NCBI RefSeq assembly: GCF_026210795.1
Contig: NC_089433.1
Span: 5,456,001-5,520,000, forward strand
Direction: 5' to 3'
Origin: Rhizophagus irregularis
Lineage: Eukaryota
Length of the DNA stretch: 64,000 nt
Below the pieces are notes generated by a model, which was not told the origin of the DNA, ran no database searches, and worked only from the letters and a program-made list of their open reading frames with translations. Shown piece after piece: positions 1 to 41,700 of the stretch. Both the position numbers and the translations under genes were made by a program. Within the stretch, counting starts at the first letter, position 1, and each line of letters begins with the position of its first letter.

Positions 1-2129
1 ACTACATCATAAAATTAATTTATAATGGATACTTTCATACTTCATATTTTATTTTACACTTCATTGTTACTCTGGATATTTTTTAAAAATGCCAAAAGCC
101 AAATCTGTAAAACCTGGTAATAAACAACTTAATGGAATCCCCAGAAAACGTAAATCTCTTATAGCAGCACAAAAGAAAGAAATTTGTTTGAAAAAAATTT
201 CTACTCCCTCCTTAAAACAAAAAGAACTAGCCAACGAATATGAGGTTAGTGAAGGAATGATCAGTGATATTTTAAAGGAAAAAGACCGTTGGCTTGTTGT
301 AGATCTTGATTCACATCAAGCTGGATTACGACGCGAAAAAAGATTCCTTTTCCTATCATTGAAGAGGCTTTAACTCTTTGGGTAGAAAGTGCACTTCAAG
401 CCAGTCTTATCATCAATGATGATATTCTTTCAAGCAAGGCCTGCCTGAGCTTGCTTTTTTGTGTGGAGAAGATAAATTCAAAGGGTCAAATGGTTGGGTT
501 GACAATTTCAAAAAGCGGCACAATCTTAGGCAATACAACATGCATGGAGAAGCAGCAAGTGCACCTGTTCAAGAACTTGATACAATGCGTGAAGAAATTC
601 GTAGAGTTTTAAAGAATTATGCCCTGAAGACATCTTTAATTGTGATGAGACAGGTCTTTTTTGGAAAATGCGACCTAGTCGTACAATTTCTAATGCCCCA
701 ATTTCTGGAACAAAACAGTCAAAAGATCGTGTAACTGTTTTGCTTACTTGCAATGCAACTGGGAGTGAAAAATTATGTCCATTATTCATACACAAATATG
801 AAAACCCTCGAGCCCTCAAAAACATCAATAAGAAAACTCTTCCAGTAGATTATCACTGGAATCCAAAAAGTTGGATGCAAGTTTCGATCTGGGCCAATAT
901 CTTAAAAAACTTGATGCTCGAATGAGAACACAAGGTCGAAATATTCTTCTTTTAGTCGACAATGCTCCAACTCACGCCCTATTTGAAACCACACGCCTTA
1001 CAAATATCACGCTTGAATTTCTTCCTCCAAACACTACTGCACACCTCCAACCATGTGATCAAGGTATTATAAATAGCTTCAAGCGTAAGCTTCAATTAAT
1101 GAACATTCAATTCAGAATGTAGTAATGTTTTATACTTGAAATTTTAAAAATTCGTTGTTTATTTTAGGCACAATATCGAAAGCTATATTTACACAATCGA
1201 GTCAAATCATATGATAATTTTAATGAATATGGCACTGAACCCGTTGAAATTAATATTAAAAAATGCATCAAATATGTTGCACGTGTATGGGATAGTGTTA
1301 CAAAAACTACCATTGAAAACTGTTGGCTAAAAGCGGATATCCTGCCTAAAGATGATGATGGAGACGAAGTTAGAGATGATGATTGTGAGCATGATGATCA
1401 TGTCCATGATGACCATGACTCCAATGACCATGCCGATACTCAAATTTATCTTACACATATTAAGGAATTGGAAGAGATTCAAATGTTGATTGATAAACTT
1501 GATTTTGAAAAACCTTTTACTGCTGAAGAATTTATTCAATGTGATAGGGAAGAAATTACAACGGAAATGATATCCAATGAAGAAATTTTGAAAACCGTTC
1601 TTCCCAATAATAATCGAAGAGGAAGTAGAGGAGATTCCTTTACCTAGTATCTTCTATGTGTATTGAATTTTATGATAAGGTGATTTTATATTTGGAGCAA
1701 CAGGAAGACGGTTTTGATACAAAAAAAGAAGAGTTGAAATTTGTTAAAAAGCTAAAAAAAGAAGCTTTAAAACAACGGTTTATTTCTGCAAAACAGACTA
1801 ATCTTGATAGTTATATTAATATAATTGAGTAAATTTATTCGTGTAATTAAGAGGCTCAATTTTTGTTACATTTTCATAAATAATTCAGTATAATAAAATG
1901 TTGTTAAAAATTTAAAAATCGCGTAATTTATTATTTATAGTTATCTCTTAAAATAAATAATAATAAATTTTTAATGAATATTCGGTATAATATAATGAAA
2001 ATTCGTTATAGTGGCATACCGATTATTCGCTATGATATACCGAATATTTCGTTATAGTGTTACCAAATTTTTGTATTACGAAGGCCTGATCGGCCCGGAC
2101 ACCAAATTCGTTATATCGAGGGCAGACTG
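1..2129 (+). mobile_element. pogo/Tigger-type (Tc1-mariner superfamily) DNA transposon; left end lies outside the window
   Basis: Holds a CENP-B/DDE transposase relic. The right end reads ...AAATTCGTTATATCGAGGGCAGACTG followed by TA (2130-2131); its reverse complement CAGTCTGCCCTCGATATAACGAA is a pogo-style TIR. Subterminal TTCGTTATA-like motifs recur at ~1980-2115. Confidence 0.8.
89..1832 (+). pseudogene. Frameshifted pogo/Tigger transposase (CENP-B HTH + DDE_1)
   Basis: Fragments in several frames: HTH (QKELANEYEVSEGMISDILK), FKGSNGWVDNFKKRH, SKDRVTVLLTCNATGSEKL, ILLLVDNAPTH, FLPPNTTAHLQPCDQGII. Multiple frameshifts; probable intron at ~1085-1168. Confidence 0.9.
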
Positions 2130-3084
2130 TACTACCAAAAATATTATAAATACTAGCTAGTAAATTGGAATAATATTAGCTAATCTCTATATATATATTT
2201 TATAATTTTTTGTTACTAATTATTTTGGTTATATAGTGATTATATATTAATAATATAATACATAAGATAATTTTTATATGTACAAAAGAAATGACATTTT
2301 GAATATGATATTTTAATTATTATACTTTAATTATCACATAATATTATTTATAAATATACTGTATATGTAATATTCTATTATATATTTTATTATAATATCC
2401 TCTAAAATAAAATGACAAAAAAAAATTATAATACATCAATATATAATATTAAAAAAAAATAATATAATAAATGTATTTTTGCCTTCTTTACAAATTTATT
2501 AAGATAACAAAAATGGTTTTAAATGTTATTTTTTGATTTATTTGACAAAAAGCATTTTTTTTATCAAGTAATCTGCAAAAAAATTTCCTTTTTAAAAAAT
2601 TGTAAATTTCAGGATTTGTATAATATCATGTGATATGAATTGATCAATAAGAATGTGCCCATTTCAAGATATTACAGATAAGAGAATGTATATTATAATT
2701 AGGTTGGAAAAAAATCACTATAAAGCTAGAATTATATAAATTATATAGTAAATAAATTTTGATTGGAATGCTATAATTAATTTGGAATTTAAGATTTATC
2801 TTGGCAACATGTTTAGTTGCATATTAACAACTCTGATATCTTAGTGCTGCACTAATCAAACTAAATAATACAATTACTCAAACTTAATTTTGTTAAGCAA
2901 AAGATTTTATCTATTATTCCATACTTCTTTGAGGCAATTTGCCTATTTATTTTTTTAAAAGAAAAAAAAAAATTTTTTAAAAATAAATTAGAAAGCAAAT
3001 AAATACTGCTTTTAATTAGATTACATGCATAATCATGTAAACACTAATTATACTAAAGAATTTGCTTTCAGGAAAATTGACCAG

Positions 3085-5058
<1,974 letters not shown>

Positions 5059-5360
5059 GGCTATTGATTCCAAGAGAGAGTTTTTTCGGGAGAATGAATA
5101 ACTACGAAAATACGGCTATCACGATTTTACCGTTTTTCTATCATTATATCATTACGTATTTATTAGATCATTGTCAAATAAAGATTGAAAAATTGAAGAC
5201 AATTATAGGCATCGATCATCTAGTTGCAGAAATTTCTCATGTCAAGTAACTCTTATTTACGTCATACGAATTTTGGGTAACTATGTACACTGCAACCTAG
5301 ATGTGACATCACTGCCATGCAAATACGAAGATACGAAGAAAAATCAACCGAAGAGTATAA

Positions 5361-8758
<3,398 letters not shown>

Positions 8759-24632: not shown

Positions 24633-26560
24633 AATGAAAACGATTCTATAGTTATAGAATCACCGCCTCAACCTAATCCTGTAAAACATACAAAGGAAGA
24701 TGTCTCAAAACCAGGTCCGCGAAAAATAAATTTTAGAATTTTATTTAATTAAATCATTTGTTAACATTTTATTTATATTTCAGTCAGTGCCAAAATTTTA
24801 AATAATTGGCTTGATGGCGATTCTTTGAATTTTTATGTAAAAATTACTTGTTTATCTAGTGGTTTTGAATTTTGCAAAACTCATATCTGCAATGACATCA
24901 ACCCAGAATGGAATCAAGAATTTTATATTCCAATTTACGACATTGATAAAAAATTCAAGATTCGAGTTTATAATAATAATGCTTTCTTTAACCATGTAAG
25001 TTTATCCTTGATCCTAAAGACCTAATTAAAGGAAAGAAATTGGATCTTGAACGCGATTTAATAAAACCAAAAAATAGATTTTTACACATACCACCCAGAC
25101 CTAATAAAGGACAACTTCGTTTTGTTGCCAACTTCTATTCCTTTTCAAAATATCCAAAAACAACAAAATTTTTTAAAACTACTATTACTCTTTATAATTT
25201 ATATAATTTGATAAATTACCAATGTACAGATGGTAATTTCGAACTAACAGACAAATTAGCAAAATTATTTAATTTTGATTCCAAAAATGAATTGAAAAAA
25301 AGCATTCACTGCTACTATAAAGGATGATGAAAAAGTAAAATCTCTCCACAATGATATCTGGGGCACCGTATTAACTACAGGTAATTTTATTTCTTTCATT
25401 ATTATTAACTTGCGACATTTATAATTTTATTAAAATTACATAAAATATTTTACTCGCATATTAAATTGTCACATATTTCTTTACCTAAAGCACTCCTTAA
25501 AATTTTATATACGGATCACGTGATGTGGACGAATTCATTTAAGGAAGCTGAAGTTTACTTGAAGAAAATCGTTACAGATACAAAACAATTATATGGTTTG
25601 GCTGAAAATTTTGCAAATGATCATTTTAAAATCAATGAAGAGGAAGTATTAGAACTTTCTTGGGCCAGTTGGATTGGTGAAGCTGCTATAGATGTATCTC
25701 AATCAACAACAAAAACTAAAAGCAAATTCGAAGCTACTAAAGAATTTATTGAAAATATTCTTATAGAAACTACTAATAATCTTACTGGAAAACTCCTTGT
25801 GCTTATACCTTGACTAAAGTCCATTTTCAAAAATGCTACTGTTTCAGATCAAGAAGTCAAGATCACTTCCATTTATCAATGTGGTGAAGAAATTGAAATA
25901 ACTGTACCTGAAATTCAAAATAATGGAGAACAATCGAAGATGGTCAAAAATGAAGAGAAACCTACTATAATTGTTAGGAAACAGAAGAAAAAAGATCCTC
26001 AATGTGAAAAGGAAAGCCATGCCTATTGTCACCAAAACCAAGAAAGTGGAACTTACTGATATCATTTATAAAGTAGATTTTCCATCCACTACACCCACCA
26101 TACTACTATTATTGAAATCACTGTCACTTTACCAGTGAAAAGCACCAACACAGTCATTGTTAAATATACAACAAAAAAAGTAATCTTATCAAAAAAATTC
26201 AGAATCTGTAACTGAGGAAGAGTACATTAAGGTTATTAAAACTCAAACTGAAGATGGTTTATTTGATATTTTCAAACAAATCACTGATGATCTTGGCATA
26301 ACTACAAATGAAATATTTCATGAATAATTTGTATTGCTGATGAATATGTCAAAGAATTGAATACTAAAATATTGATCACATTCTTAACATTAGCTTATTG
26401 CAATAAAGTATTATATAAATATCAACAAAAATTTAACTCAAAATGAAAAAGCCTGTTCTTGGTTGCATATCCAAGTTAAAAATGAAAAAGAACTGTTAGA
26501 ATTTTGTGAAAAATTATTGTTGAGAGAGTTTTCAATATAAAGAAGAAAGAAAAATTTTCT
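24633..26560 (+). pseudogene. C2-domain protein pseudogene
   Basis: FYVKIT..KTHICNDINPEWNQEFYIPIYD..FKIRVYN (C2 domain) followed by Q-x-x-DG-x-F segments; many stops and frameshifts. Confidence 0.6.
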
Positions 26561-27370
26561 TGATTTGGCAATATTCCAAAATGATAATTAATAAAAATAA
26601 GAAATATAAGATTATAAAAATCATTATATATATTACTCGAACTTTGATTTTTCTTTAATAGTAAATGAAATGGTAATAAATTTATCAAAAAAAAAAGAAT
26701 GGTAATAAATTAGTACAAAAAGATTTAGTTTTAAAGTTTAATAATTTTAAAAAGTTAAATTGTAATACACATAATAAGATTCATATTATCCTATTGGTAA
26801 ATTTATTTTTAAAAAATGTATATACCTTATGATAGGACCCCGCTTACTTATAATAAAAGTCACTGTAATTCTAAGGTAAAACCATTAAGAAAAAAATTTT
26901 GATGACGATCCTACTATAAATAAATAAATTATATCTAAAAAAGGAAATATTACACTGCATTATTATAATTTTTTTCCTTTTAAATCAATTAACCAATAAT
27001 ATTAAGAATTGGAGTAAGGTAAAATTACTAGTAAATTTGAAATTTTTCCTGGAAACCTTTATTAGAAGTAAGCGGGATCCTCTTATGATTTTAAATTTAT
27101 TAATATTTTTATAATACAGTTTGAAGAATTAGTAGATTGTATGTAACATCATAATGTTTTTCAAGTTTTTGATAGTTGCTTATCAAATTTTTAATTTTAA
27201 GCTTATATACAGTCAACTCTCTTTATAGTCACACATTTGGGACAGTCCATATTTGGTGATTATAAAGAGATGTGACTATATAAAAAATTTCTTATATTTG
27301 TATATCATAATTCCGGCCAAAAATTAACATAATTTTAGCCAGAATTATACTTAAACCTTTATTGTATCGT

Positions 27371-27891
27371 AACTTCGCCAATATTAATCGTAGAGAGATG
27401 ATCTTACCGCCATTCGATTCGTCTTGATGAGACGGTTCTAATGGTATAAAATACGTCGAAATCCAATCACTAGATTAATTTCCGAAATTAAAAAAATATT
27501 AATGGTTTTTGTGTGATAACTCTGTTAATATTGATCCTAGAAAGTCGATCTTACTACCATTCGATTCGTCTTGATGAGACGAATCTAATGGTATAAAATA
27601 CATCGAAATCCAATCACTAGATCAATTTCCGAAATTAAAAAATATTAAATGGTTTTTAAGTAATAACTTCGTCAATATTGATCACAGAGAGATGAGCTTA
27701 CCACCATTCGATTCGTCTCGATGAGGCGATTCCAACGAGCTATAAATCATCTTTTTACAATCACTAGGTACCGAGAAATCTAGCAAAATGTTAAATGGCG
27801 CAGTAAACGTAAATCAAGAAATATTATAATGCCGATGTTTAACATTTTGTTGAATAACTCGTCAGCCAGTGATCGGAAAAGGATAAAACTA
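27371..27891 (+). repeat. Internal tandem repeat with 147-bp period and palindromic core; the 4th unit is split by the insertions and resumes at 37089
   Basis: Units start at 27371, 27518, 27665 and 27856. Each has CCATTCGATTCGTCT..; unit 2 forms the hairpin TACCATTCGATTCGTCT-TGATG-AGACGAATCTAATGGTA (27555-27593). Confidence 0.9.
27875..27891 (+). repeat. 17-bp target-site duplication GGAAAAGGATAAAACTA, copy 1 of 4
   Basis: Identical copies at 27875, 35736, 36068 and 37072; the base 3' of the copies varies (A, G, G, C) and copy 1 differs on its 5' side. Confidence 0.95.
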
Positions 27892-28030
27892 AAAAGAATA
27901 AAACAAAAACTCTCTCCCGTTCTGCTCACTTGACAATATTTACGAAAAAAATAAAAAATTTTTTCGGAGTTTTTTATTACTTTTTCTTTATAATTTCTTT
28001 ATTTTAGTTAACTACTACGACACTTTACAA

Positions 28031-30043
28031 ATGGGTAAAGATAACAAAAAGAAAAATAACCAGTCTAACAAAGATACTACATCTAAACGTCCTGCCTCTA
28101 GCTCTCCAACTGGCAACGTTTCTGGTCAAGGTTCCTCTATGTCTGGTCCTTCGAACACCCCACCTTTGACCACCTCTACTAATAAACGTACCAGAGTCAG
28201 TGCTGAAGACTCTGTCATGGATGTTGATAAACCTCTCACGCCTCCTGGCCCTGTTGAGACAACTTCCGCTGAGCTACCTTCTCAACCTGATACCTCCTCT
28301 CTTGATGCCTCTCAACACGCCCCTAGCGATAAAGGCAAAAGCCCAGATATTACTCCCGCAGTATCCTTCCCTGAACGTGCTGCCTCCCCGGACGCGTCCC
28401 AGGCTGCAGTACAGTCTCAACCTACACTTTTTTACGCCTCGGCTGCTCCTAATGACGTCGAAGGCTTTTGGACTCACTTCGCTTCGAACCGCGACGCGTG
28501 CGACGCGGTTGATAGGCAACTTTCCTTGTTTCCCTCTTATGGTAGTCGTGCCACGTGTAGTGGTTCCAACGATTTGAAGAGGATCATCGTCCACTTCCGA
28601 AAAAAGGATGATCTTGACAAAGCCACAGCTTCCGCTATGGATTCCTTGTTTGGCTTGCATTTCCATGCATATGACCCCCAGGCTATTAAGGCAGATGAAC
28701 ACGCGCGTACCCTGGTGGTTACCGATATCCCCCTTTTTATAACTGACGCTCTTTTGCGTGGTACTTTTTCTCGTTACGGCAATATTACTCGCTGCCATAC
28801 CCGTTTATCTAAACTTTATCGTACTGCATACATTACCTTTGAATCTACTGGTGCTTTACGGGACCTCGACTCTACCTGGGGCGTCCTTTGTGGAGGACAT
28901 TGTTTGCGTATCTGCCCCGCTACCTTCTCACCTGACCAACGTGCTGAAAGACGCGCTTATGTCGCTTTACTTGCCGGTCTTCCGCGTGGTACTATAGCGG
29001 TCGATCTTGCTGAAATTGCCGATGAAATTTCCGCTAAATCTGTCAATGTTCCCTTCTCTATGAATTCCTACAATCCGAAACCTTACGCTTATTGCCATTT
29101 TGCCTCTGAAACGGCTATGGAAAACGCTAAATCTATTTCATGTGCCCTTAAGAAAGTTGGCCTTACCTGGCATTCTCCGGATGAAGTTACTTCTCTTTGT
29201 CATCGATGTGGTCGCCCGAACTGTAACCCTGATCGATGTGGTTCTTCATCTAGACCCAACCGCCCTCCTCGCCCTTGGCAATCTAATGATAAATTACGTG
29301 CTTTATATAACAAGCATTTACCCCCTTCTCATCCTGCTAAACGACATAATCGTTTCGCTCGCCCTGATAACGCTGATGATGGACAAAGCCGTGCCAATGC
29401 TTCTCGCCATCGTTCAAAATCCAGACCCAATACCCGACAACAATCTCGTTCTCGTTCTCAACGTCGCCCATGGAATCGTGACAATCTCAATAACAATAAT
29501 AATGCTCAACGCCGTCGCATTCCTGATGCAAATGAACTTGATTACTATATTGATGGCATGGATGTTACATACCCTGCTCCTCCCACTGTGCTCACTGATT
29601 GGAAATCTATTGGTGCTGCTCTTGAAAAAGTAGTTGAAGAATTAGCCCTTCTTACCACACAATTTGCTTCTATGAACAGCCGCATCACTAATTTGGAATC
29701 TGCTATGGCTGCTCGTACTCCTATTCCTGGACCTTTTGTCGCTAAACCTTCTTCCTACATCCCTTCCTCTATGCAAGGATGGGATGATACAGTGAATCGA
29801 ACTGATAATAATATCCTCGTTGATATTAATTCTCCACCTTTGCAATCAACAAGTGGTTTTTCCCCGATTCCTCATTTTGCTCCCATCCCACCTTCCAATG
29901 TCGCTCCTTCCTCCCCTATTGATATGGAACAGCGTCTCTCCTCTCTTTCTGATACTGTTGCCTCTTTGGCTGGTTCTATTAAAGAAGGAATCCAACAAAA
30001 CAACCTCATCTTGGCTCGGCAACAAGGCCAAGCCAATCAATAA
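28031..30043 (+). CDS. LINE ORF1 (gag-like): RRM-like domains, Cys knuckle, Arg/Ser-rich region, coiled coil
   Basis: Intact 670 aa; RTLVVTDIP..FSRYGNI..TAYITF (RRM-like), KPYAYCHF, CHRCGRPNC, RSRSRSQRR, heptads LEKVVEELALLTTQFASMNSRITNLE. Confidence 0.88.
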   Translation: MGKDNKKKNNQSNKDTTSKRPASSSPTGNVSGQGSSMSGPSNTPPLTTSTNKRTRVSAEDSVMDVDKPLTPPGPVETTSAELPSQPDTSSLDASQHAPSDKGKSPDITPAVSFPERAASPDASQAAVQSQPTLFYASAAPNDVEGFWTHFASNRDACDAVDRQLSLFPSYGSRATCSGSNDLKRIIVHFRKKDDLDKATASAMDSLFGLHFHAYDPQAIKADEHARTLVVTDIPLFITDALLRGTFSRYGNITRCHTRLSKLYRTAYITFESTGALRDLDSTWGVLCGGHCLRICPATFSPDQRAERRAYVALLAGLPRGTIAVDLAEIADEISAKSVNVPFSMNSYNPKPYAYCHFASETAMENAKSISCALKKVGLTWHSPDEVTSLCHRCGRPNCNPDRCGSSSRPNRPPRPWQSNDKLRALYNKHLPPSHPAKRHNRFARPDNADDGQSRANASRHRSKSRPNTRQQSRSRSQRRPWNRDNLNNNNNAQRRRIPDANELDYYIDGMDVTYPAPPTVLTDWKSIGAALEKVVEELALLTTQFASMNSRITNLESAMAARTPIPGPFVAKPSSYIPSSMQGWDDTVNRTDNNILVDINSPPLQSTSGFSPIPHFAPIPPSNVAPSSPIDMEQRLSSLSDTVASLAGSIKEGIQQNNLILARQQGQANQ

Positions 30044-30092
30044 TTGTTCTCTTTTTCCCCCTTCTTTATTACCGATTTATCAGTGTGTAATA

Positions 30093-33000
30093 ATGATGGA
30101 CAACAATAAACATAATTTTTCCCCTCACCCCTCTCCCCTTATTAAATTTGGTCAATTAAATGTTAATGGTTTATGTTCCCCAGTTCGACAACAACATTTG
30201 CTTAATTTTTTTCTTCACTCCTCCTTTGGTGCTTTATCTATTAATGATACGCGTCTTTCCCCTTCAAATGCTAAATTTATTTTTAAAAATGAACACTCCC
30301 AACATCACTTTAAGTCCTATTGGGCTTGTTCATCTTCTTCTTCTCGCCCTCATGATGGTGTTGGTATTTTATTACGTAATCCCCTTCATAAACATGTTCA
30401 AACAATTGATCCTTGGAACGGTCGACTTCTTAAATTAGATTTGTTCTTTCATCAAACTAAAATTTCTATTATTTCTGTATATTATCCCCCTTCCGGCTCT
30501 GTTCATCAATCTATTTGCAATGATCTTATTGCCAAACTTCTTTCTTGGCTCGATTATGCCCGAGCTAATAATTATTTTGTAGTTATTCTTGGCGACTTCA
30601 ATGCTGATGTAATCGCTCATTCTAATTATTCACCTAATCATTTTAAGCTTCTTCGCTTGCTTTCCTCTCGGTTTTTTACCGATCATCAAGCTCACTCCTC
30701 TACAAATGGTCCTGATCCCACTTTCTTTCATGATAATGGATCTTCTCGACTGGATTATATTTGGTCTTCGCCTGGTTTTCCTGCCCCTGGTCTTTTTTCG
30801 CAAGTGGTTACTTGTCCGAATCTTTTTGATCGACCTTTCACCGACCACAAAGTTCTTACAACTGTTTTTGACTTTAATTCTTGTCTGGCCATTTTGGCTA
30901 AATCTCGTCTTAAACAAAAAAAAGAAATGCGTACTATTTTTTCTTATGCTTCCACTTCAGTTGAACAATGGAATAATTTTACCGTTGAAGTAGATGATTC
31001 TCTTGGAGTTTATTTAGATAGCCATTATCGCCCTAATTCTGATTTCTCTTCCCTTTCTCTTGATCGTATGTGGCATGCATTGAAAGCTGCCATAATTAGT
31101 GCTGCAATTGAAACATTACCCTTTCAAAAAGTCTCTAATACACACCGACATTCGTACTCTCCTGAATTAACTAAACTTATTGCTATTAACAAGTTTTTAG
31201 ATCGATTTTTATATCGCCTTACTACTCGTCGCTCTAATCGGCCCGCTCAGATTGCGCAAATGACTGCTGCCTTGCCTTCCCATCTTGAGAACCTAGCTTC
31301 CTTACTTCCTGATTATTCAGTTCCTACCTATTCCACCACCCCTGCATCTGTATTTAAATCGTTTTTACGATCACAGAAAAGTTTAGTTTCTGCCTTTTTG
31401 TCTACTAAATTCGCCCAACACCTTACGGACTCAGTGGAATACTATACTGCACTACGTGACGAACATTTTTCGACTTCACTTGGCTCATTTATAGATTCTG
31501 CCTTATCAGTAGAAAAACGTTCGATTATTCTTGACCGTATCCTGGTTGTTCTGGACTCAACTCCTACTTTATTAACGGATCCTTCGGATATTAAACAAGC
31601 CGCTATTTCTCATTTTCAATCGATTGTTTCTCCCCCGTTGGTCCACTATTCTTCCATCACTTCATTTCCCGCCCGATGGCAACAAGCTTACACTCCTCTT
31701 GCAAATGTGTCTGCTTCATTATATGATCCTGTTTTGGCGCCTATTTCTCTACAAGAATGGTCTGCTGTGATTTCCTCCATGCCAAATAACAAAGCTTCCG
31801 GCCCTTCAAAAATTTCTTATGAGATGATTAAACATCTGTCCGGTGAAGCCTTGGATTTTTCTCTCTTACTTGCCAATACCTGCCTTTCTCGCGGTGATAT
31901 TTCTGCTGACTGGCGTGAAGCTGTGGTTTATCCTATTCCTAAACCTCACGATTTTGATGCTCAACTGAAGAACACTCGACCTATTACCCTTTTGGAAACA
32001 ATTCGTAAATGTGTAGTTAAGGTCGTTACGAATCGTCTTTCTAATATCCTTGCTGATGGTAAAATTCTTCAAGGAGGTAACTTTGCTGGTTTACCTGGTG
32101 GTTCCACTGATGTCCCTATCAAAATGCTCGACGCGATTATTCATCAACAGAAGCATGACTCTACTGATGATCAAGAACTATGGATCGTTTCTCAGGATAT
32201 TTCTAAAGCTTTTGATTCTATGGATCTAAATATGCTTAAATTAGCTTTAGAAAGATTACATATTCCTGCACTTTTAGTGCGATTTATTTTAAATCTTTTT
32301 ACACGACGAAATAATAAGATAATTACTTGTCATGGCGATACAGCTGCTTACAGAGTACGTGTTGGTATCGATCAAGGAGAAATCATTTCCCCTCTTCTTT
32401 GGGTTATTTATTTGGATCCTTTACTTACTGTTTTGAATCAACAAGCACGAGATCCCTTTATTTTAAAATCTTCAGCCCTTTTAAATTATTCTCCACTTGA
32501 ATTTGAACAACATTCTTTACCGGTTTCACATTTAACGTTTATGGATGATTCTACACTCATTGCTTCTTCAAAATCTGGCATAGAAGACCGTCTTTCTATT
32601 ACTGCTGAATTTTATACTTTAAATAATGTTCAAGCTAATTCTGCGAAATATGTTCTCCTTTCATCCTCTTCCCCCTCCTCGAAGATTATTTTTGATCTTT
32701 CCCCTTCTCCTTTAGTTCCCATTCCTTCCCTTTCCCTTTCTTCTTTATCTGTTAAAACTTCGTTTCGTTTTTTAGGAGTATGGTTTTCTTTATCTGCCTC
32801 TTCTGCTTTTGTTCTCAGACAAGTGCGCTCCATGGTTAAAGATATGGCAGCTCTCCTGGGACCGAAGAAATTATTAGCACAGCATGTGGCCTATCTTTAT
32901 AATGCTGTCCTTCTTCCGCGATTGGAATTTCGCCTTCAAACTACCCTTTTTTCTGAAAGTACTATTCAAACAATTGTCAAGCCTATGTTTTCGGTACTTC

Positions 33001-35481
33001 GAAGAAAAGCTGGTCTTGCTGCGACTACCCCGTTACCTTTATTATTCCTTAAACTTCCCTTTTCTATTCAAAATGCTTTTTATCGCTTTCTTTCTTCCCA
33101 TATTGCATCTTGGCAAAAAATCTTCACTCACCCTGATTTCAAAAATTTTGCCCTTTATGCTATCTCCTATCTTCAAGGATATTTGGGTGCTGAGAGTTGC
33201 CCGACTACTATCAACTTAGAACCATGGTCACAAATCGTTTCTTTGCGAACGCACACTTTGTTTAATTCGTTATTGTTTTCTTCGCGTTTGAACATCACGT
33301 GGTCTCTTTCCTTCCGGCCTCCGAGGCATGATCTACAACCTGCTCTGCCACTCCGATCTATTCTACCTCATTCCATCTTTCAATCAAGTTGGAAACTTTG
33401 GAAAAACCTGAATATATTTGTGCTTGCTCAGTTGGTTTCTCCTTGTAGACGTTATCTTATGAATTGGCCTGACCTTCGTTATCTTGGCATCGTTGGTCGT
33501 AAAGGACAGATTCCTAATTGGTTTACTTTTATCAATAATAATTTTCTTTCTTCTTCTTCTTCTACTTTACTTTTATCTTCATATTTTATTAATTCTTCTT
33601 TTACTTTAGCTTTTCCTTGTTTATTAGATCATACTGTTAAAGATTATTCTTTTTATCCTCAATGGGCTATTAATCTTGACTCTGCTACCCAAACTTTATC
33701 TGTTGGTCGTGTGTGTATCACCTACAAGAAACAAAACTCGGCTATTATGTCGCATTGGCTTCCTGTATCTCCCTCGGCTGATGAACGATCCTATAACCCT
33801 TGTCCTGGTTGTGCTCTTAACATTCCTGCCTTATCCAAGAAATCTGCTATCAAACAACGTTGTAATAGTGAGAAGTGTTTTTTCAATATCACCCTGTCGG
33901 AAACTGTGGGTTACCCTACTAGAAACGCCAAAGTTTTTGCGGCCTACCTCCCCATCACTCTTTCTACTTCATGGAGTTATGCCACGTCCTTGGCCCTTGT
34001 TCATTTGATGAACCCGCCCTCAACCGCTTCTTTCACCCTTTCTCCTTCTGTTAAGGACAATTTAGATGATGATGTTTTGCCGTCTTCTGTGCAATCTTTG
34101 TATACCGATGGCTCTTTCCGTCCTGCCAATGATTCTTTATCCTCTTCCATGGCTTCTGCTTGGATTGCGCTCGATGATGATGGATTTATCCTTGAATCTT
34201 CATCCATGCATCTTCCCTCTTGTTTTCCTTCGGCTCTACGTTCTGAAATTTATGCTGTTTTATTAGGATTGACCGCCCTCTCCCGTGATTCTTCAATTTC
34301 TATCTATACTGATTGTAGTCAGTTAATTTCATTATGGACACGTTTTGTTGATGTTCCTTTCTCACCGAAGTTGCTTCGAGAACCTAATCATCTTCTTTGG
34401 CTTTCTATTCGACAACTTATTATGGATCGTAACCTCCATGTCGATTTGATTAAAGTCCCTGCTCATGGCGATGACATTTATAATGTACAAGCGGATTCTT
34501 TGGCAAAAGATGCTCATTCATCTATACAACCTTCTGTTTCGCCTTTGGCATTTTGTCATGCTCCATGCTTGTTAACTTTTAATTCTTTACCTGTTGACAT
34601 GAATATTCGTCACTTTCTTCGCTCTATAGCAGACGCTCGTGCTCTTTTATCTTTTTGTTCATTGGCACGTTTTACTGCTCTTGGTTCTCCTTCACTTTTT
34701 GATTGGGCTGGTATATATTTTTGCCTTTCACAAATCAAAGGTTTTGCTTCACATAAGAATGGTCGTCCGGAATTCTGGATCTTCCGTATCAAACTCCTTT
34801 TGGATATGTTGCCTACCTTAACTACTCTTCAACAACGCAAACCTTACTTATACTCTCCTGACTGGCTTTGTCCGCAGTGTAACTCTGCTCCAGAAGATTT
34901 GAATCATCTTTGGACTTGTCCTTATATTTTACCAGAATTAAACCCTTGTTTAACACACCGGTCTGAAGTCATTAAATTTAGAAATTCTTGTTTATCTTCC
35001 TTTCTATCCTTGAAATCTTTGGATATTTCCTTTCAAACTGAATTTTTTGCTTTGGAATGTTGGAACTATGAAGCTCCTTCTTTATCCTGTCTTTGGCTTA
35101 CTCGAGGATTGTTGCCTGCACATTTAACGACATTTTTGAATCAACACTTCTCTCTCTGTTATATACAAGACTATTTCTCCCCTTCTTAATGACTTCCAAG
35201 TCGAATTATATGGTGAAATTTGGCTATGCCGGAATGTTCTTTTTCATGCTTGGGAAGAGTCGCAGGGTATCTCGGCTGCTTCCAAATTACGTGGCCCTTC
35301 TACAAATTCTTCTTCTTATACTATCTCTCCTCATCGTCACGACTCCTCTTTGGCGACAGTTTCTCAGGATTCCTGGATTTCTTGGATATCCTCTTCTATA
35401 ATTCGGGGTGGATCATGGATCTCGCACCTGGATTTTCTGCGCCGCTTAACAGTTCAACCTCTTAGGATCTCTTTCTGGTAA
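30093..35481 (+). CDS. LINE ORF2: APE endonuclease, reverse transcriptase, RNase H, CCHC finger; one frameshift near 35155
   Basis: APE: NVNGL, GVGILL, GDFN, SRLDYIW, TDH. RT: RPITLL, QDISKAFDS, GIDQGEIISPLLW, FMDD, FLGVWF. RNase H: YTDGS, RSEIYA, YTDCS, VPAH, NVQADSLAK. CCHC: CPQCNSAPEDLNHLWTC. After the TC run at ~35149-35157 another frame continues VIYKTISP..EIWLCRN..RISFW* to 35481. Confidence 0.95.
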
Positions 35482-35735
35482 CGGACTGGATTTTTGGATG
35501 TTGGATAGTTGACTCACACTGGCCTTCGGGTAAAGTTGGGGTATGCGATTCTGTAATAGTTTAGTTTTTCTTTGCTTTAATTTATTTTAGTTTAGATTTC
35601 TTTACTTGTATGAGTCGTGAAGCTACTCTTTTTTATTTTTTATTAGTTTATTTTCTTATTTTTGTAATATTGTTCGATGTTATTTTCGAAGTTCTAAATA
35701 TAAATAAAAGATAAAGTCGTAAGACTGTTTGCACA

Positions 35736-35752
35736 GGAAAAGGATAAAACTA
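35736..35752 (+). repeat. 17-bp target-site duplication, copy 2
   Basis: GGAAAAGGATAAAACTA directly after the LINE 3' end. Confidence 0.95.
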
Positions 35753-36067
35753 GCCTAAAATGGTGGTATGGAAGGGTACTAGATGGTTGATGTTACCTGT
35801 CGAAAGTCCTCCATGAAAGTAGATGCTCTCTAAAAGGTCGTTGAATAAATTGAGTATCGTATCGTACAATGGGTATAGGATGAGTAGGCGGCGTGTACTG
35901 CTTCAGATCGGCCTAAATGGCCCGAAGGGGGATGTCTTATAGTGGTGCTGTTACCTGAGGAATTAAGTACTCGGTTTAATAGTTGCCCATTGAAGATGAT
36001 AGGACACAGACCCGAGATTAGTCGCTAAGAGGCGAATGGGTGGTACGGCCGTAAAAGCACTTGCAAA
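35753..36067 (+). mobile_element. 5'-truncated copy of the structured SINE-like element
   Basis: Aligns by eye at roughly 90% to 36763-37071, shares the CACTTGCAAA 3' end, and is bounded by the 17-bp duplication. Confidence 0.9.
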
Positions 36068-36084
36068 GGAAAAGGATAAAACTA
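36068..36084 (+). repeat. 17-bp target-site duplication, copy 3
   Basis: GGAAAAGGATAAAACTA between the two SINE-like copies. Confidence 0.95.
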
Positions 36085-37071
36085 GGGTTGGTCACCCTAT
36101 CTTGGTGGTTAGTCGAGACCATCCGTTAAGCCTGAGTATGGTGAGGTTGCAGGTTCGATTCCCATGACCACGGAAATAAAAAGAATTTTACTGCGGACGC
36201 TACAACCAATAGCGTGAAGGTACAGGGATTAGTGTAGTTGGTTTACTGCATCATGGTGAATTAGTGTGTACAGTTAGGCCGCGGCATTTCAGGGGCGTAA
36301 GGGTCATGGTGCCTTCTTAACGTCCCTATGAGGCCATTGGCATGTGCGCAGTCCTGTCCATTCGAGGTCGCTACTATACCGGGGTGGGGGGACTTCCTGT
36401 GGGCTGGTGGTCACTCTGCGATGCCGCTTGGGGTCAGTAATGGCTAGATGGTCATCCATAGATGGTAAAGCTGAGGGTGCAATGTCTTAGTGGTAGTTAG
36501 ACTTCTGTTAGGTCTTAGGAACCAACCAAGGTGTTCGTGCACAGAACAGGTAGCATGGCTATGGGGTTCGATTCCCTACTCCTTGGGTCCTGGTTGGTTG
36601 ATCCCTGGTGGTTGATACCCACCATAAGGGGTGATCCTGGACAGATGCCTGCTACTTCCTGTCTGAGTGGTCACTTACAAAGTATACCACTTGGGGTAAA
36701 CAACTGTACTATCGGTGCTAGGTAATCGCGGGCTGTAGTGGCGCTTTGAGTGAGACTTAGTACCTAAAATGGTAGTATGGAAGGGTACTAGATGGTTGAT
36801 GTTACCTGTCGAAAATCCTCCATGAAAGTAGATGTTCTCTAAAGGTCGTTAAATAAATTGAGTATCGTATCATGCAATGGGTATAGGATGAGTAGGCGGC
36901 GTGTATCTGCTTCAGATCAGCCTAAAATGGCCCGATGGGAGATGTCTTATAGTGGTGCTGTTACGAGGAATTAAGTACTCGGTATAATGATTGCGCATTG
37001 AAGATGATAGGGCACGCCGAGATTAGTCTCGCCAAGAGGCAATGGGTGGTCTGGCCGTAAACACTTGCAAA
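36085..37071 (+). mobile_element. Full-length 987-bp tRNA-headed, structured SINE-like non-coding element
   Basis: Box A-like TATCTTGGTGG (36098) and box B GGTTCGATTCC (36152); TGGTCA/TGACCA acceptor-like stem; about 50% GC against an AT-rich background; many hairpins; no run of 5 or more T; no credible ORF; bounded by the 17-bp duplication. Confidence 0.85.
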
Positions 37072-37088
37072 GGAAAAGGATAAAACTA
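37072..37088 (+). repeat. 17-bp target-site duplication, copy 4
   Basis: Followed by CCACCATTCGATTCGTCTC, the continuation of host repeat unit 4. Confidence 0.95.
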
Positions 37089-38023
37089 CCACCATTCGAT
37101 TCGTCTCAGTGAGACGATTCTAACAAGCTAGCGACACATCTTTGTACGATTATTAGATGCCAAGTTATTTAATATATTCTTTATATAACCGTGATTATAA
37201 ACGGTTCTTTTTAATATAAGATTTTTGAGGATAGGTGTGATAGTGACTATAGATAGATTGTGACTATATAGGATAGATTTTAATAATAAAGTGTTTTGAA
37301 CATTCAACTGGTGTGACTATATAGTAGAATGTGACTATAACGGGAGTGACTATAGAGGGAGTTGACTGTAATTGCTTTACTTAATTTTTTACTTAAATAC
37401 AGGATTCTAAAAAATATATGAAACTGGAATCTGATTTTATATAATGAAACTGGTTTAATAACTCAAAGTTTGATTATTTGTATAGTAACCAATTGGCAAT
37501 TTAAAAGTTAGATATTTATTAATAGTTTGTTGATATTAATTAAATTATTATTTTTATATGTAATTTTTATTTTAAATATAATACTAATAAGATTTATAAT
37601 TATAAAAATCAAAATATTAAATATAGAATTTTATGATAATTTTAAATATAATGATTTTCTGTTAATATTAATTTACTTTACCTTAATAAAAATTAAATTT
37701 TAAAGTTTTTAATGAGTGAAAAGTAAGGTAAATTGCATATAACTTAAAAAAATGAAATTTAAAAAACTATATCAATATTTATATTAATGTAATTTTTGGT
37801 GAAATTTAAGGAATTAATCCAGGATATTATACAATTACTGGACTAGCATTATGTATATTGTTTGTATTTTTTAAAATAAGTACTATATATATAGTATTAA
37901 AACTTTACGTAATCTGTTAGAACCCTAAAGATCTACAAATGTGTCACAAAAGAAAAAGGGTATAGGTCGAGGAACCCTTTTTTGTTACCTGAAAGATATA
38001 TTTTAACGTTCCTTTTCTATAAT

Positions 38024-38467
38024 ATGGCAGAATCGGCAGAATCACAAAATTATGGATCAATAACTTCTCCTATCCCGCCACCATTCTCACCAACTTCACC
38101 TACTTCACCTGTTACGGCAGCATTTTCGCCAGATCCAAATATATCTCAACCTATTTCTGATGATAATTCTACTCGTTTACAAAAGATTGATAGTGAACAA
38201 GAAGAAATTAAACAGACTGCTGTAAATGCTTTACATCAAAATTCTATATTAGCTATGCATGTAATTGCAAGTGGTGAGGTAAATCAATTAAATAATTTTA
38301 CGATAGAAAAAAAAAAATCTTAAATCATACATTTTTATTTTATTTAGTCGCCTGCTAGAACTAGATTACGTATGTTGCGTTATTTAACAGGTTTGCCACA
38401 ACCTGAAAATAAAAATTTCATCACATCAACTTCATCATATAATGAAGGACCAAGTACAAGAGATTAA
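38024..38467 (+). CDS. Small two-exon hypothetical protein with Ser/Pro-rich N-terminus
   Basis: Exons 38024-38278 and 38348-38467 joined in frame by a GT-AG intron: ...NSILAMHVIASGE|SPARTRLRMLRYLTG... Confidence 0.7.
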
Positions 38468-38700
38468 AATTGAAGTGGGTCGATGATTATTAAATGATTA
38501 ACTTAATCAATCTTATAATTATTAAACCGTTTATTTCGTTACATTAATAATATATTTGGTTTTATTATTCATATTATTAATCCAATTAAGACAATTATTT
38601 TCTTTGGATTCATAGTTTTTAAATGTATCTTAAATTTAATAAAAAATTTTTTTTAAAATGTAAAATTATATACACTGCAAATTAGCAAAAAAGTTATGAT

Positions 38701-41700
38701 TTACATTTGACTGTTCCATCCCTGGATTTCGGGGACAGCCACTTTCTTCCCCTTAAATTCTGCTATCCCTCGGATCCTCCTACCACCAGCGATTATAGCA
38801 ACCGGCACAGCACTTGGTTGACCGGTGGTCAAAGCCGCTTTCTGTTTTTCATTCCCTTGATCCATTGGCATAATTCTTTCGTCGCATAAGGGACATTTAT
38901 AATTGGCATCGGTATTCTCAACTAATTCTTGATATTTTTCTGATGTGATGTCTTCATCACACCTTATATGGATCCACCTATCACATACATCACAGCAAAT
39001 CATTTCTTTATCATCTTCATTTTCTTCTCCATCTTCGGAATAAGTTTTCAAGCACATTGGACAGAACCTATCTTCGGAGAAGTTGAAATTGCATTTGTTA
39101 CATATCGTTGCCAAGTATATTGGAAATTTTGTTGATTCAGATGTTGCCTCCGCATGATGATAGTTGTTAGCAGCATCATTCAGCGAGATAGCTTTTTCTC
39201 CGCATGAATTGCATTGGGCACAAAGTGAACACAACCATGGGCCTATATTAAAAAAAAAATGTTATGATAAAGACTAAGGTGACTTAAATAAATCCAATAA
39301 ATTTCTTTACCTTGGGGAACTTCGGTAACTTTGGGATCACTACAATCAAGATGCCAGCCACGGTCACAGTCGTCGCAGATTAGAAGTGTTGATTCGTCTT
39401 CAGAAGAATGACATTTAACACAACTTTTGCAATCATTACATAGCCAAGAATATCCTTCCATTGCAATGATAGGTCGTGGGGTTGTAAGGCCTATGCAAAG
39501 CGGATGATACTTTCTTAAGCAATTTGCACATTTGCTCTTATATTCTTTTGAACATGATGCACCAGTACGGGGTACGGTGGCGTCAGGAGCAGTAATTGAA
39601 AAACATATCGCGCAAGAATTCTCAGGGAGAACGGGTAAAGGTTGAGCTACATTTGGAGTAGGTGCAACAACCGCGTAATTTGATGTAGCAACGTCATTTG
39701 ATAACTACAACAATAATTGTATATACTAATTAATGATAAAACGATAAATTTTGATTCACAAATTTAATATATTTTCTTACCGGGACTATACTGGAACCTA
39801 TTACAACAGGTTTAGTTCTTTCTAAGGTATTTCTATCCGAGGTTGCTTCAACATTTATAGGGTCACGCGGGTGTCCCTTATGATACATGCACCTGTCCCC
39901 CTCGAAAGACACCCCGCGTTTGCAAGGTTGTCCAGTTGTTGCGGTCAATACACCACAAATATACTGGGGAGGTGCTTTTCCAGTCGTATACTGAAACCTA
40001 TTCATAATATTACTTGTCTAAAAAAAAAAAAATAGAATATAAATTGTTTGAGAAATTATCATTAATATACTTGAAAAGTCTTGACGTACCGGATCAGGAG
40101 TATAATAGTAACGCTGTTCATATGGAGTCTCATTAGCATCATGTGACATAACAGATGATGGTTGCGGGGCAATTTCTTGGTGAGAGGCAACGGCCGAAGG
40201 GTGGTTTAAAACTCTGGGAAGATCTTGACCAAATCTTGTACGGTGACTATATCCATTTTATAAATCAGAGTATTAAATTAGTTTATAAAGGAAAACATGT
40301 TACAATTAAAAAATAATTACTTACATTGGATACCTATGTTGAAATTGGCCATCCATTAATGTCATAGGATATTTTTCCTCATGAGTTTGTCGTGTCCCCT
40401 CCTCCATTTTCATACTGTCAATAATCTGTCGGATCTCATGAGGTAAAACCTCCAAAACTTCTGGATTTAGCGTGCCAAAAGGATTGTGAGGGACCGTTTC
40501 AAAATGAATATCTGGATCCTTTGTTGCTATCGTAATATCACTTGATAGTGGTAATACTCTCGGCTGTGATAAGGCTTCAACTCGTATGCACGTAGGCTGA
40601 GTTGCCTGAGGTACTTGATCGATATTAGTATGAGGATCATAAAATCTTGGTTTTTCTTTCCTATGAATCTTTAATCTAGTATTATAATCTCTTGTCGATA
40701 AAGCTGTTTGATACATCCAATTTGTCTTATTGACAACTTTACGTGGTTTTGAACCCAAATATACTCGTCTTGAAAGAATATTACTAGCATTATCTGCTCC
40801 TGATGCCTCCCCTTTGTCACTCAGATCATCATCATTAAATCTAATTGATGATTCATAATAATCATCTTTCCTTCTTTTCCCCCCTACAATAATTTTCGAC
40901 CCAAACAGTTTGTACGTAGCTCTAGCTGAAACAAGTGTAATCGCTCTGCTTCTGAAATTTGATGGCAAAAATCCATGCGTGATAAGGTAATCACGTTCTT
41001 GATCTGTCGCATGTATTCGTTTCAAAGTTGGGTTCCGTAAAAAGAACAAATAACTGTCCCGAAAACCTAATAGTTTTGCAGGATCCATAGATAACATGTA
41101 CCAGATGTTTCCTCGAGATGGTAATTGAAAAACCTGTACTTTAAATTTACGACCACCTAATAACTCCCCGTCTTTCGTAATTTTTTGTTCCCCCTTTTCA
41201 TCAAGTTTACCATCATCTTCATCGTTATTGTTTCCTCCTTCAGCTTCATCAGCCTCCATTGGTTGTGTCGTTATCATTTGTTGAATTTCAACATTATTTT
41301 CGTCTGTTGGCTTATTACGTAATGTAGCATCGCCATTAACTTGCTTGCTCGACACTTCTAATTTCTTTCGACGTTTCGTATCAGCGTCGTCTTTCGTTTT
41401 CTTTCTACGTTTTGTGACACCACCATCATCTGCCTTTTTTTTACGTTTTGTGCTAGTAGGTGTGTTAATAATATTGTTAACAGATTCAGGATGCTTACGC
41501 GGTCGACCTGGTTTACGTTTTATCGGAGTTATAACTGTAGCCGTTGGCTGTGAAGGCTCGGGATTAACAGTATAACGTATTCTTAATCTCGGTTGCGGTG
41601 TTGGCTGTTTTTCTTGAGAAGTCTGATCAATGTCCATATCCATATTTGAATCTGTAGCAGTGGTATCTGTAATAGTTTGTGGAGTTTCTACTTGCTCAGT

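What the first reader, a model, noticed from the sequence alone, without database searches (positions are those of the whole stretch)
35700..37071. LINE and both SINE copies share a minimal non-poly(A) 3' signature GYCGTAA-N4-6-TTGCAMA
Seen: the LINE ends AGTC-GTAA-GACT-GTTTGCACA (GNRA-capped hairpin), copy A ends GCCGTAAAAGCACTTGCAAA and copy B ends GCCGTAAACACTTGCAAA. None has an A-tail or tandem-repeat tail, and the 3' regions are otherwise unalike. Established: stringent LINEs recognise their own 3' ends and partner SINEs mimic them. Inference: this short motif is the RT recognition or initiation signal, and the adjacent LINE family mobilises the SINE.
Basis: partly seen in the sequence, partly recalled or inferred. 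Interest (0 to 1): 0.7.

Follow-up and report, generated by a model that had tools for sequence, protein, structure and literature searches.

The report
Tailless SINE–LINE pair targeting a transposon
In what is likely a mycorrhizal fungus, one long retrotransposon and two copies of a short hitch-hiking element are stacked at the same 17-base site inside a small DNA transposon and end in a similar tail-less motif; the long element likely supplies the enzymes that copy the short one to that site.

Summary
The motif is real: three copies in 64 kb, each ending exactly at an element's 3' end, none with a tail. An identical 17-bp target duplication occurs four times (TSD-LINE-TSD-truncated SINE-TSD-full SINE-TSD) inside a 962-bp TA-flanked, mariner-type non-autonomous DNA transposon. 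ORF2 is 94% identical to a Rhizophagus irregularis protein. Contigs from four runs show the SINE is abundant and that element-end + same target + differently truncated SINE recurs elsewhere. A sister LINE lineage (64% identical ORF2) has a near-identical last ~30 nt but is followed by a second site of this transposon type, once with a SINE head behind it. Shared targeting, more than the motif, supports mobilisation by this LINE group. The motif needs correction: most LINE copies read GTCATAAG, so the GNRA hairpin and the G of CGTAA are not family features, and end similarity is modest (P about 0.002-0.02). The two halves can pair (GUAA/UUGC). Its role as the RT signal is untested; read-through annealing to the target is a live rival. 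Closest known: crocodilian Tx1-Mar/SINEU in Mariner-N4. New variant of a known kind.

The parts
27210..37368 (.). Host element: non-autonomous mariner-type DNA transposon, 962 bp when the stack is removed, TA on both sides (27208-09, 37369-70)
   Evidence: 23-bp terminal inverted repeats, 21/23 identical, with GTGACTATA subterminal repeats; superfamily from recalled TA/CAGT signature
27210..27232 (+). Left terminal inverted repeat
37346..37368 (-). Right terminal inverted repeat
27235..27262 (-). Second target site, empty here; used by the sister LINE lineage at other loci
   Evidence: 9/9 aa match of P0136 residues 69-77, directly after the LINE-end peptide; pattern hit at 27247-27262
27359..27799 (+). 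Three 147-bp tandem units of the host element; a fourth, related unit continues after the stack
27875..27891 (+). Target site duplication copy 1 (17 bp); overlaps the arm of a host inverted repeat
27892..35735 (+). Full-length LINE, 7.8 kb, no tail
28031..30043 (+). ORF1, 670 aa, RRM domain
   Evidence: PF00076 E 1e-6
30093..35481 (+). ORF2: APE endonuclease, RT, RNase H-like, C-terminal Cys/His motif; one frameshift near 35150 in this copy
35716..35735 (+). LINE 3' terminal motif
   Evidence: family variant at 35719
35736..35752 (+). Target site duplication copy 2
35753..36067 (+). SINE copy A, 5'-truncated, 315 bp; motif at 36048-36067
36068..36084 (+). Target site duplication copy 3
36085..37071 (+). 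SINE copy B, full length, 987 bp, non-coding; motif at 37054-37071
36086..36171 (+). tRNA-like head with exact B box at 36152
   Evidence: Rfam tRNA clan best hit, 17.1 bits, E 0.41, below gathering score
36526..36586 (+). Second tRNA-like T-arm unit with B box at 36565
   Evidence: 15.9 bits, E 0.99
37072..37088 (+). Target site duplication copy 4

Best explanation
A tail-less LINE and two copies of a ~1-kb tRNA-headed SINE sit between four identical 17-bp target duplications inside a mariner-type DNA transposon, likely because the LINE's endonuclease cuts that one site repeatedly and its reverse transcriptase also copies the SINE RNA. Shown: the stack, the duplications, the host element, recurrence of such junctions elsewhere, and a near-identical last ~30 nt in two LINE lineages. 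Inferred: ORF2p nicks the target, primes reverse transcription at the last base of the RNA element, and makes a second nick 17 bp on; each insertion regenerates the site, so copies pile up in tandem. Inferred: the SINE is taken up in trans by both LINE lineages and inherits each one's target. Inferred, weakest step (about 0.5 on its own): the terminal RTAA-N4-6-TTGCAMA, perhaps as a 3-4-bp GUAA/UUGC stem with a 3-nt overhang, marks where copying starts.
For: Four identical 17-mers with different neighbours on each side. A and B differ by 19 substitutions and 13 gap positions while the duplications do not differ, and truncated A lies 5' of B. In four runs of four studies, 6 of the 15 joints shown (26 listed in all) run from inside or the end of the 17-mer to a SINE start at 35994, 36085, 36126, 36163, 36528 or 36714. 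Depth inside the duplication before the head (169,380 and 125,475 at 36083) is of the same order as in the head (104,281 and 92,547 at 36103) in X2 and X12. Depth over the LINE's last 37 nt is 7-17 times that just upstream, as expected if several lineages share only the terminus. Gene models P0019/P0106 (one locus) and P0136 (another contig) read IKDKVIRLFAH, 9 of 11 residues like the window's terminal frame, then NHQI; P0136 continues into the host element's second site and P0019 into GWSPYLSG, 7 of 8 residues like the SINE head. P0019 lies in a separate RT clade (SH-aLRT 99, quick tree; RT 77%, endonuclease 73% identical). Both SINE ends fold GUAA against UUGC in the minimum-energy structure. 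Precedent: Tx1-Mar and SINEU share a Mariner target and tandem copies sandwich a duplication (PMC4494074).
Against: LINE-SINE end similarity is only 14 of 20 positions by hand alignment (13 with the commoner letter), P about 0.002-0.02, far below the ~50-100 nt of typical stringent pairs. The commoner A breaks the outer pair of the proposed stem, the window's LINE end prefers another hairpin, and no fold beats shuffles (z between -1.2 and +1.6). The second target rests on amino-acid readings of three gene models from two loci; P0136 leaves the window's sequence after 9 residues, so its host is a relative rather than an identical element. Contig depth is not copy number and no unbiased count of flanks was possible: no genome is held and collection scans gave only chance hits. 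This LINE copy is frameshifted, so it is probably not itself the active source.
Confidence: 0.65

Rival explanations
1. Read-through annealing sets the end: transcripts run on into the flanking target duplication, that RNA pairs with the nicked target strand, and this fixes the precise tail-less start; the motif is secondary.
For: SINE B holds no run of five T; the first is at 37208, 136 nt past its end, so a Pol III transcript would carry the 17-mer. Every copy seen is followed by target sequence. R1Bm is described as needing downstream target sequence for accurate reverse transcription (passage in PMC7265360).
Against: The last ~30 nt are conserved between LINE lineages that are followed by different targets, which annealing alone does not require. 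It does not explain why the SINE end resembles the LINE end at all. It can act together with the best explanation.
Confidence: 0.2
2. The motif works in DNA: an element's 3' end plus duplication is the preferred landing site for the next copy, so stacks grow by self-targeting.
For: All junctions visible and in P0019 are element-end, target, next element. The LINE is first in both stacks seen whole or in part.
Against: The first insertion needs no motif: host sequence before copy 1 lacks it. The stretch laid could not show host-target-SINE junctions, so the pattern is partly a sampling effect. Double insertion with a shared duplication is common without such a signal (10.1101/158386).
Confidence: 0.07
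3. The motif match is coincidence and another LINE family, or motif-independent recognition, moves the SINE.
For: Similarity is short, found after the fact, and reached by up to 130 of 6000 random 30-mers. More distant LINE relatives exist in the same species.
Against: A different partner would have to cut the same base and make the same 17-bp duplication, and also the second site.
Confidence: 0.06
4. The stack arose by DNA-level duplication or unequal exchange, not by three retrotranspositions.
For: Identical direct repeats can seed exchange; a 17-mer could stay unchanged at 10% divergence about one time in six.
Against: A local duplication of B's end would put A after B, not before it. Differently truncated SINEs follow the same 17-mer elsewhere.
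Confidence: 0.02

Closest known systems
Crocodilian Tx1-Mar LINEs with SINEU in Mariner-N4_AMi (Kojima 2015, PMC4494074; passages and section 16 read)
   Same: Target-preferring LINE plus SINE in a non-autonomous Mariner; tandem SINEs sandwich a duplication (16 bp there); two hot spots in opposite orientation preferred by different LINE families; partner inferred from shared target.
   Different: Here a fungus, a tRNA-like head rather than U1/U2, about 1 kb, an ORF2 with an RNase H-like domain, no tail, and four still-identical duplications. Phylogenetic link to Tx1 not tested; likely convergent.
Xenopus Tx1 LINE in the Tx1D non-autonomous DNA transposon (passage in PMC4494074; primary paper not held)
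   Same: APE-type LINE inserted at a fixed site of a non-autonomous DNA transposon.
   Different: Tx1D is described as piggyBac-type; no SINE partner is mentioned in the passage seen.
Stringent LINE/SINE pairs (maize LINE1-1_ZM/ZmSINE2-3, tobacco TS, Mg-SINE/MgL; PMC3472496 part 1 of 3, PMC3747384 passages)
   Same: SINE end resembles LINE end; LINE terminus conserved beyond the rest of the 3' UTR.
   Different: Shared part there is about 50-100 nt with a supported stem-loop and usually a repeat tail; here at most 20 nt, 65-70% alike, no tail, no supported structure.
R1 tandem arrays in rDNA (10.1101/158386 passages) and R1Bm (PMC7265360 passage)
   Same: Site-specific double insertion leaves identical duplications between copies; downstream target RNA may aid initiation.
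   Different: Target there is 28S rDNA; here a DNA transposon, with LINE and SINE mixed in one stack.

Membership tests
tRNA-headed SINE (SINE2) | tRNA-related head with Pol III A and B boxes at the 5' end | tested here: inconclusive
   Exact B box at 36152; best Rfam hit is tRNA clan spanning 36086-36171 but 17.1 bits, E 0.41, below cut-off; ARAGORN none; the A-box pattern hit only at 36230 and 36463
tRNA-headed SINE (SINE2) | Non-coding | tested here: met
   Longest stop-free stretch 68 codons in six frames
tRNA-headed SINE (SINE2) | Target duplications and variable 5' truncation with a fixed 3' end | tested here: met
tRNA-headed SINE (SINE2) | Many copies | tested here: met
   913-5895 contigs laid per run on 1099 bases in 4 of 4 runs, SINE bins up to thousands of times single-contig depth; not a copy number
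tRNA-headed SINE (SINE2) | A-rich or simple-repeat tail (usual, not universal; recalled) | tested here: not met
tRNA-headed SINE (SINE2) | Transcribed by Pol III | not testable with these tools
   Only contigs were available; no T5 run inside the element
Stringent LINE/SINE pair | About 50-100 nt of clearly homologous 3' sequence | tested here: not met
   No similarity beyond the last 20 nt
Stringent LINE/SINE pair | Shared 3' stem-loop | tested here: inconclusive
   GUAA/UUGC pairing predicted in both SINE ends, not in the LINE's best fold; no fold beats shuffles
Stringent LINE/SINE pair | 3' end required for retrotransposition | not testable with these tools
   needs an assay
Tx1 clade / Tx1-Mar | Two ORFs, ORF2 with APE endonuclease and RT of the L1 group | tested here: met
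   best solved relative is human L1 ORF2p, E 4e-19
Tx1 clade / Tx1-Mar | Preferred insertion into a DNA transposon | tested here: met
   no genome-wide fraction
Tx1 clade / Tx1-Mar | RT groups with Tx1 references | not tested
   No Tx1 or Proto1 reference sequence was available; the tree holds only search hits
Tx1 clade / Tx1-Mar | Found in animals | tested here: not met
   Tx1 described as an animal group; closest proteins are R. irregularis. A curated R. irregularis library does list LINE/L1-Tx1
Non-autonomous Tc1/mariner-type transposon (host element) | TA duplication and short terminal inverted repeats | tested here: met
Non-autonomous Tc1/mariner-type transposon (host element) | Matching autonomous transposase element, other copies | not tested
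   No second copy in the window; no genome

The most novel reading that the evidence does not exclude
One tail-less 1-kb SINE is carried by two LINE lineages whose endonucleases aim at different sites of one DNA transposon family, and a terminal signal of at most 20 nt is all the RNA needs. That would be a minimal cargo signal with swappable targets, and a native site-specific delivery system for arbuscular mycorrhizal fungi.
Probability: 0.25. Interest if true: 0.75.

Novelty: new variant of a known kind. Interest (0 to 1): 0.55.

Why it matters
R. irregularis was reported to lack SINEs (PMC6123716); a later curated library lists SINEs without anatomy or partner in the passages seen (PMC11075540). 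This gives a defined, abundant SINE with a likely partner, and a fungal parallel to the crocodilian LINE-SINE-Mariner arrangement. With no tail and a fixed target, it is a clean system to separate RNA recognition from target annealing at the start of reverse transcription. If the short signal suffices, it suggests a way to place ~1 kb at a repeated non-genic site in a symbiont that is hard to transform (that difficulty is recalled, not from a call).

Tried and rejected
No genome is held. Pattern scans for end-plus-target: viral contigs 0; metagenome 3 and prokaryotic genomes 3 loci, all 6 matching only the pattern's surroundings (at most 34 nt), rejected as chance. ORF2 C-terminus in viral contigs: none confirmed. 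First guess that the second spacer came from the 147-bp unit: 7 hits against 7.7 expected, replaced by the 9/9 match of P0136. A protein search with a SINE-junction frame found nothing among 16 candidates; the representative-protein search never ran. Rfam over 26000-39000 gave no tRNA hit. GNRA tetraloop as a shared signal: rejected. Longer LINE-SINE homology: none. Earlier scan notes: none. Two primary papers were not held. The tree is the quick version, 95 of 135 rows, midpoint-drawn.

Full report
Observation. None is followed by an A-tail or a repeat. Each is followed by the same 17 bases, and a fourth identical copy lies at 27875-27891, just before the LINE; it is preceded by host sequence that belongs to an inverted repeat, so the 17-mer is a target duplication and the motif is the true 3' end. 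Upstream of the motif the LINE 3' region and SINE B are unrelated (local score 25, shuffles 26.5 +/- 4.0).

How much more than chance. The composition estimate (0.005 per 128 kb) flatters a motif drawn after the fact, and A and B are one family (287 identities, 19 mismatches, 13 internal gap positions). An alignment anchored at both 3' ends gives a score reached by 2 of 917 SINE-body 30-mers and 45 of 6000 window 30-mers; with the letter most LINE copies carry, 3 of 917 and 130 of 6000. The likeness is probably real but modest.

Anatomy. The LINE (27892-35735) has ORF1 with an RRM and ORF2 with APE endonuclease and RT; relatives also carry PF00075 RNase H and the best solved relative is human L1 ORF2p. 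This copy has a frameshift near 35150; relatives run on to about 35481. The closest protein is 94% identical and from Rhizophagus irregularis; all 82 best rows are named for that species, so the window is likely from it or a close relative. SINE B (987 bp) is non-coding, has exact B boxes at 36152 and 36565 and a weak tRNA-clan match starting at its second base (17.1 bits, below cut-off). A is a 5'-truncated copy. The whole stack lies in a 962-bp element with TA on both sides and 23-bp inverted ends, 21/23 identical; I call it mariner-type from the recalled TA/CAGT signature.

Other copies in DNA. Contigs of four runs from four studies were laid on 35664-36762. Between 913 and 5895 contigs per run fit, so the SINE is abundant; depth is not a copy number. 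Six of the 15 joints shown (26 in all) lead from the 17-mer to a SINE beginning at 35994, 36085, 36126, 36163, 36528 or 36714; letters between the sides are not known. Seven others skip from inside the SINE (six internal deletions, one ending within the 17-mer) and two reflect the normal continuity of B. Depth inside the duplication before the head matches depth in the head. So the site is reused at other loci. Depth over the last 37 nt is 7-17 times that just upstream, so the A may come largely from a sister lineage; the window lineage's own consensus is not settled. A loose end in X4 (10 contigs) shows a SINE hairpin GTCTC-ATAA-GAGGC about 35 nt from the end whose apex equals the commoner LINE hairpin apex; both window SINE copies have other loops there, so this is a lead only.

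Other copies seen through gene models. Of 136 stored proteins, three carry the LINE terminus read in frame. The first block matches the window's terminal frame in 9 of 11 residues and implies the A variant. NHQIWTVPN matches 27235-27261 on the minus strand in 9 of 9 residues, a subterminal part of the host element, and GWSPYLSG matches the SINE head frame in 7 of 8. P0019 is 64% identical over ORF2 and falls in a separate RT clade of 57 rows against 24 for the window's (SH-aLRT 99 and 87, quick tree, 95 of 135 rows). Thus a sister lineage keeps the terminus, uses a second site in the opposite orientation, and is followed once by the SINE head after about 16 bases. This rests on two loci and on amino acids, not DNA.

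Mechanism. Shown: stack, duplications, host element, recurrence, conserved terminus. Inferred from established TPRT: the endonuclease nicks the target, RT starts at the element's last base, a second nick 17 bp on makes the duplication, and the site is regenerated for the next copy. Inferred: the SINE uses the same proteins, because it lands at the same base with the same duplication and also at the sister lineage's site. Least sure: the motif is the initiation signal. Its halves are complementary (GUAA/UUGC) and pair in the predicted folds of both SINE ends, but not in the LINE's best fold, and no fold beats shuffles. The main rival is read-through annealing: B has no T5 terminator until 136 nt past its end, so its RNA would carry the target, as described for R1Bm (passage, PMC7265360).

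Comparison. Crocodilian Tx1-Mar and SINEU share a Mariner target, form tandems around a duplication and use two hot spots in opposite orientations (PMC4494074, passages and section 16). This system works like that one, but Tx1 membership is untested and head, size, tail and host differ. It fails the usual sequence test for a stringent pair (PMC3472496, part 1 of 3; PMC3747384, passages). Double insertion with a shared duplication is known in Drosophila (10.1101/158386, passages). R. irregularis was said to lack SINEs (PMC6123716, passages); a later library lists SINE and L1-Tx1 families (PMC11075540, passages and a search of 9,058 characters of supplement). Its sequence library was not visible and may already hold these elements, as may Repbase. 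Nine literature searches (listings only, apart from the papers named) showed no description of this pair, its ends or its targets.

Verdict. Observation partly confirmed, interpretation partly supported, new variant of a known kind, interest 0.55.

Noticed in passing
window 35499-35561: A block of the LINE 3' UTR is kept between the two lineages (19 of 21 residues in a non-coding frame) and is absent from the SINE; a candidate cis-only RNA element. Fold not better than shuffles.
   Followed up: partly
window 35753 and 36085: Both SINE copies begin with a G that matches neither the host flank nor, for A, the homologous base of B; possibly untemplated addition at the 5' junction.
   Followed up: no
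window 36526-36586: Second tRNA-like T-arm with an identical B box in the middle of the SINE: possibly a composite of two units.
   Followed up: partly
window 27749-27884 and 27217-27270: Both target sites lie in arms of imperfect inverted repeats of the host element, next to an RATCAC/GTGAY motif.
   Followed up: no
window near 35150: Frameshift truncates ORF2 of this copy about 100 residues early relative to relatives.
   Followed up: yes
P0037 and P0066: Gene models in which ORF1-like sequence follows the end of ORF2, a hint of LINE-LINE tandems or nesting.
   Followed up: no
P0019, P0106, P0136: Public gene models translate LINE 3' UTR, target and SINE head as protein; P0136 is wholly such an artefact.
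   Followed up: yes
window 27359-27799: Three 147-bp tandem units with an internal palindrome inside the host transposon.
   Followed up: partly
window 38701-39704, minus strand: Cys-rich reading frames with PHD-finger-like spacing, part of a host gene just downstream; judged by eye only.
   Followed up: no
L002 1344-1373 and L003 1553-1582: 34-nt, 88% match to the end-plus-target junction in two 53%-GC metagenome contigs with no other similarity; taken as chance.
   Followed up: yes
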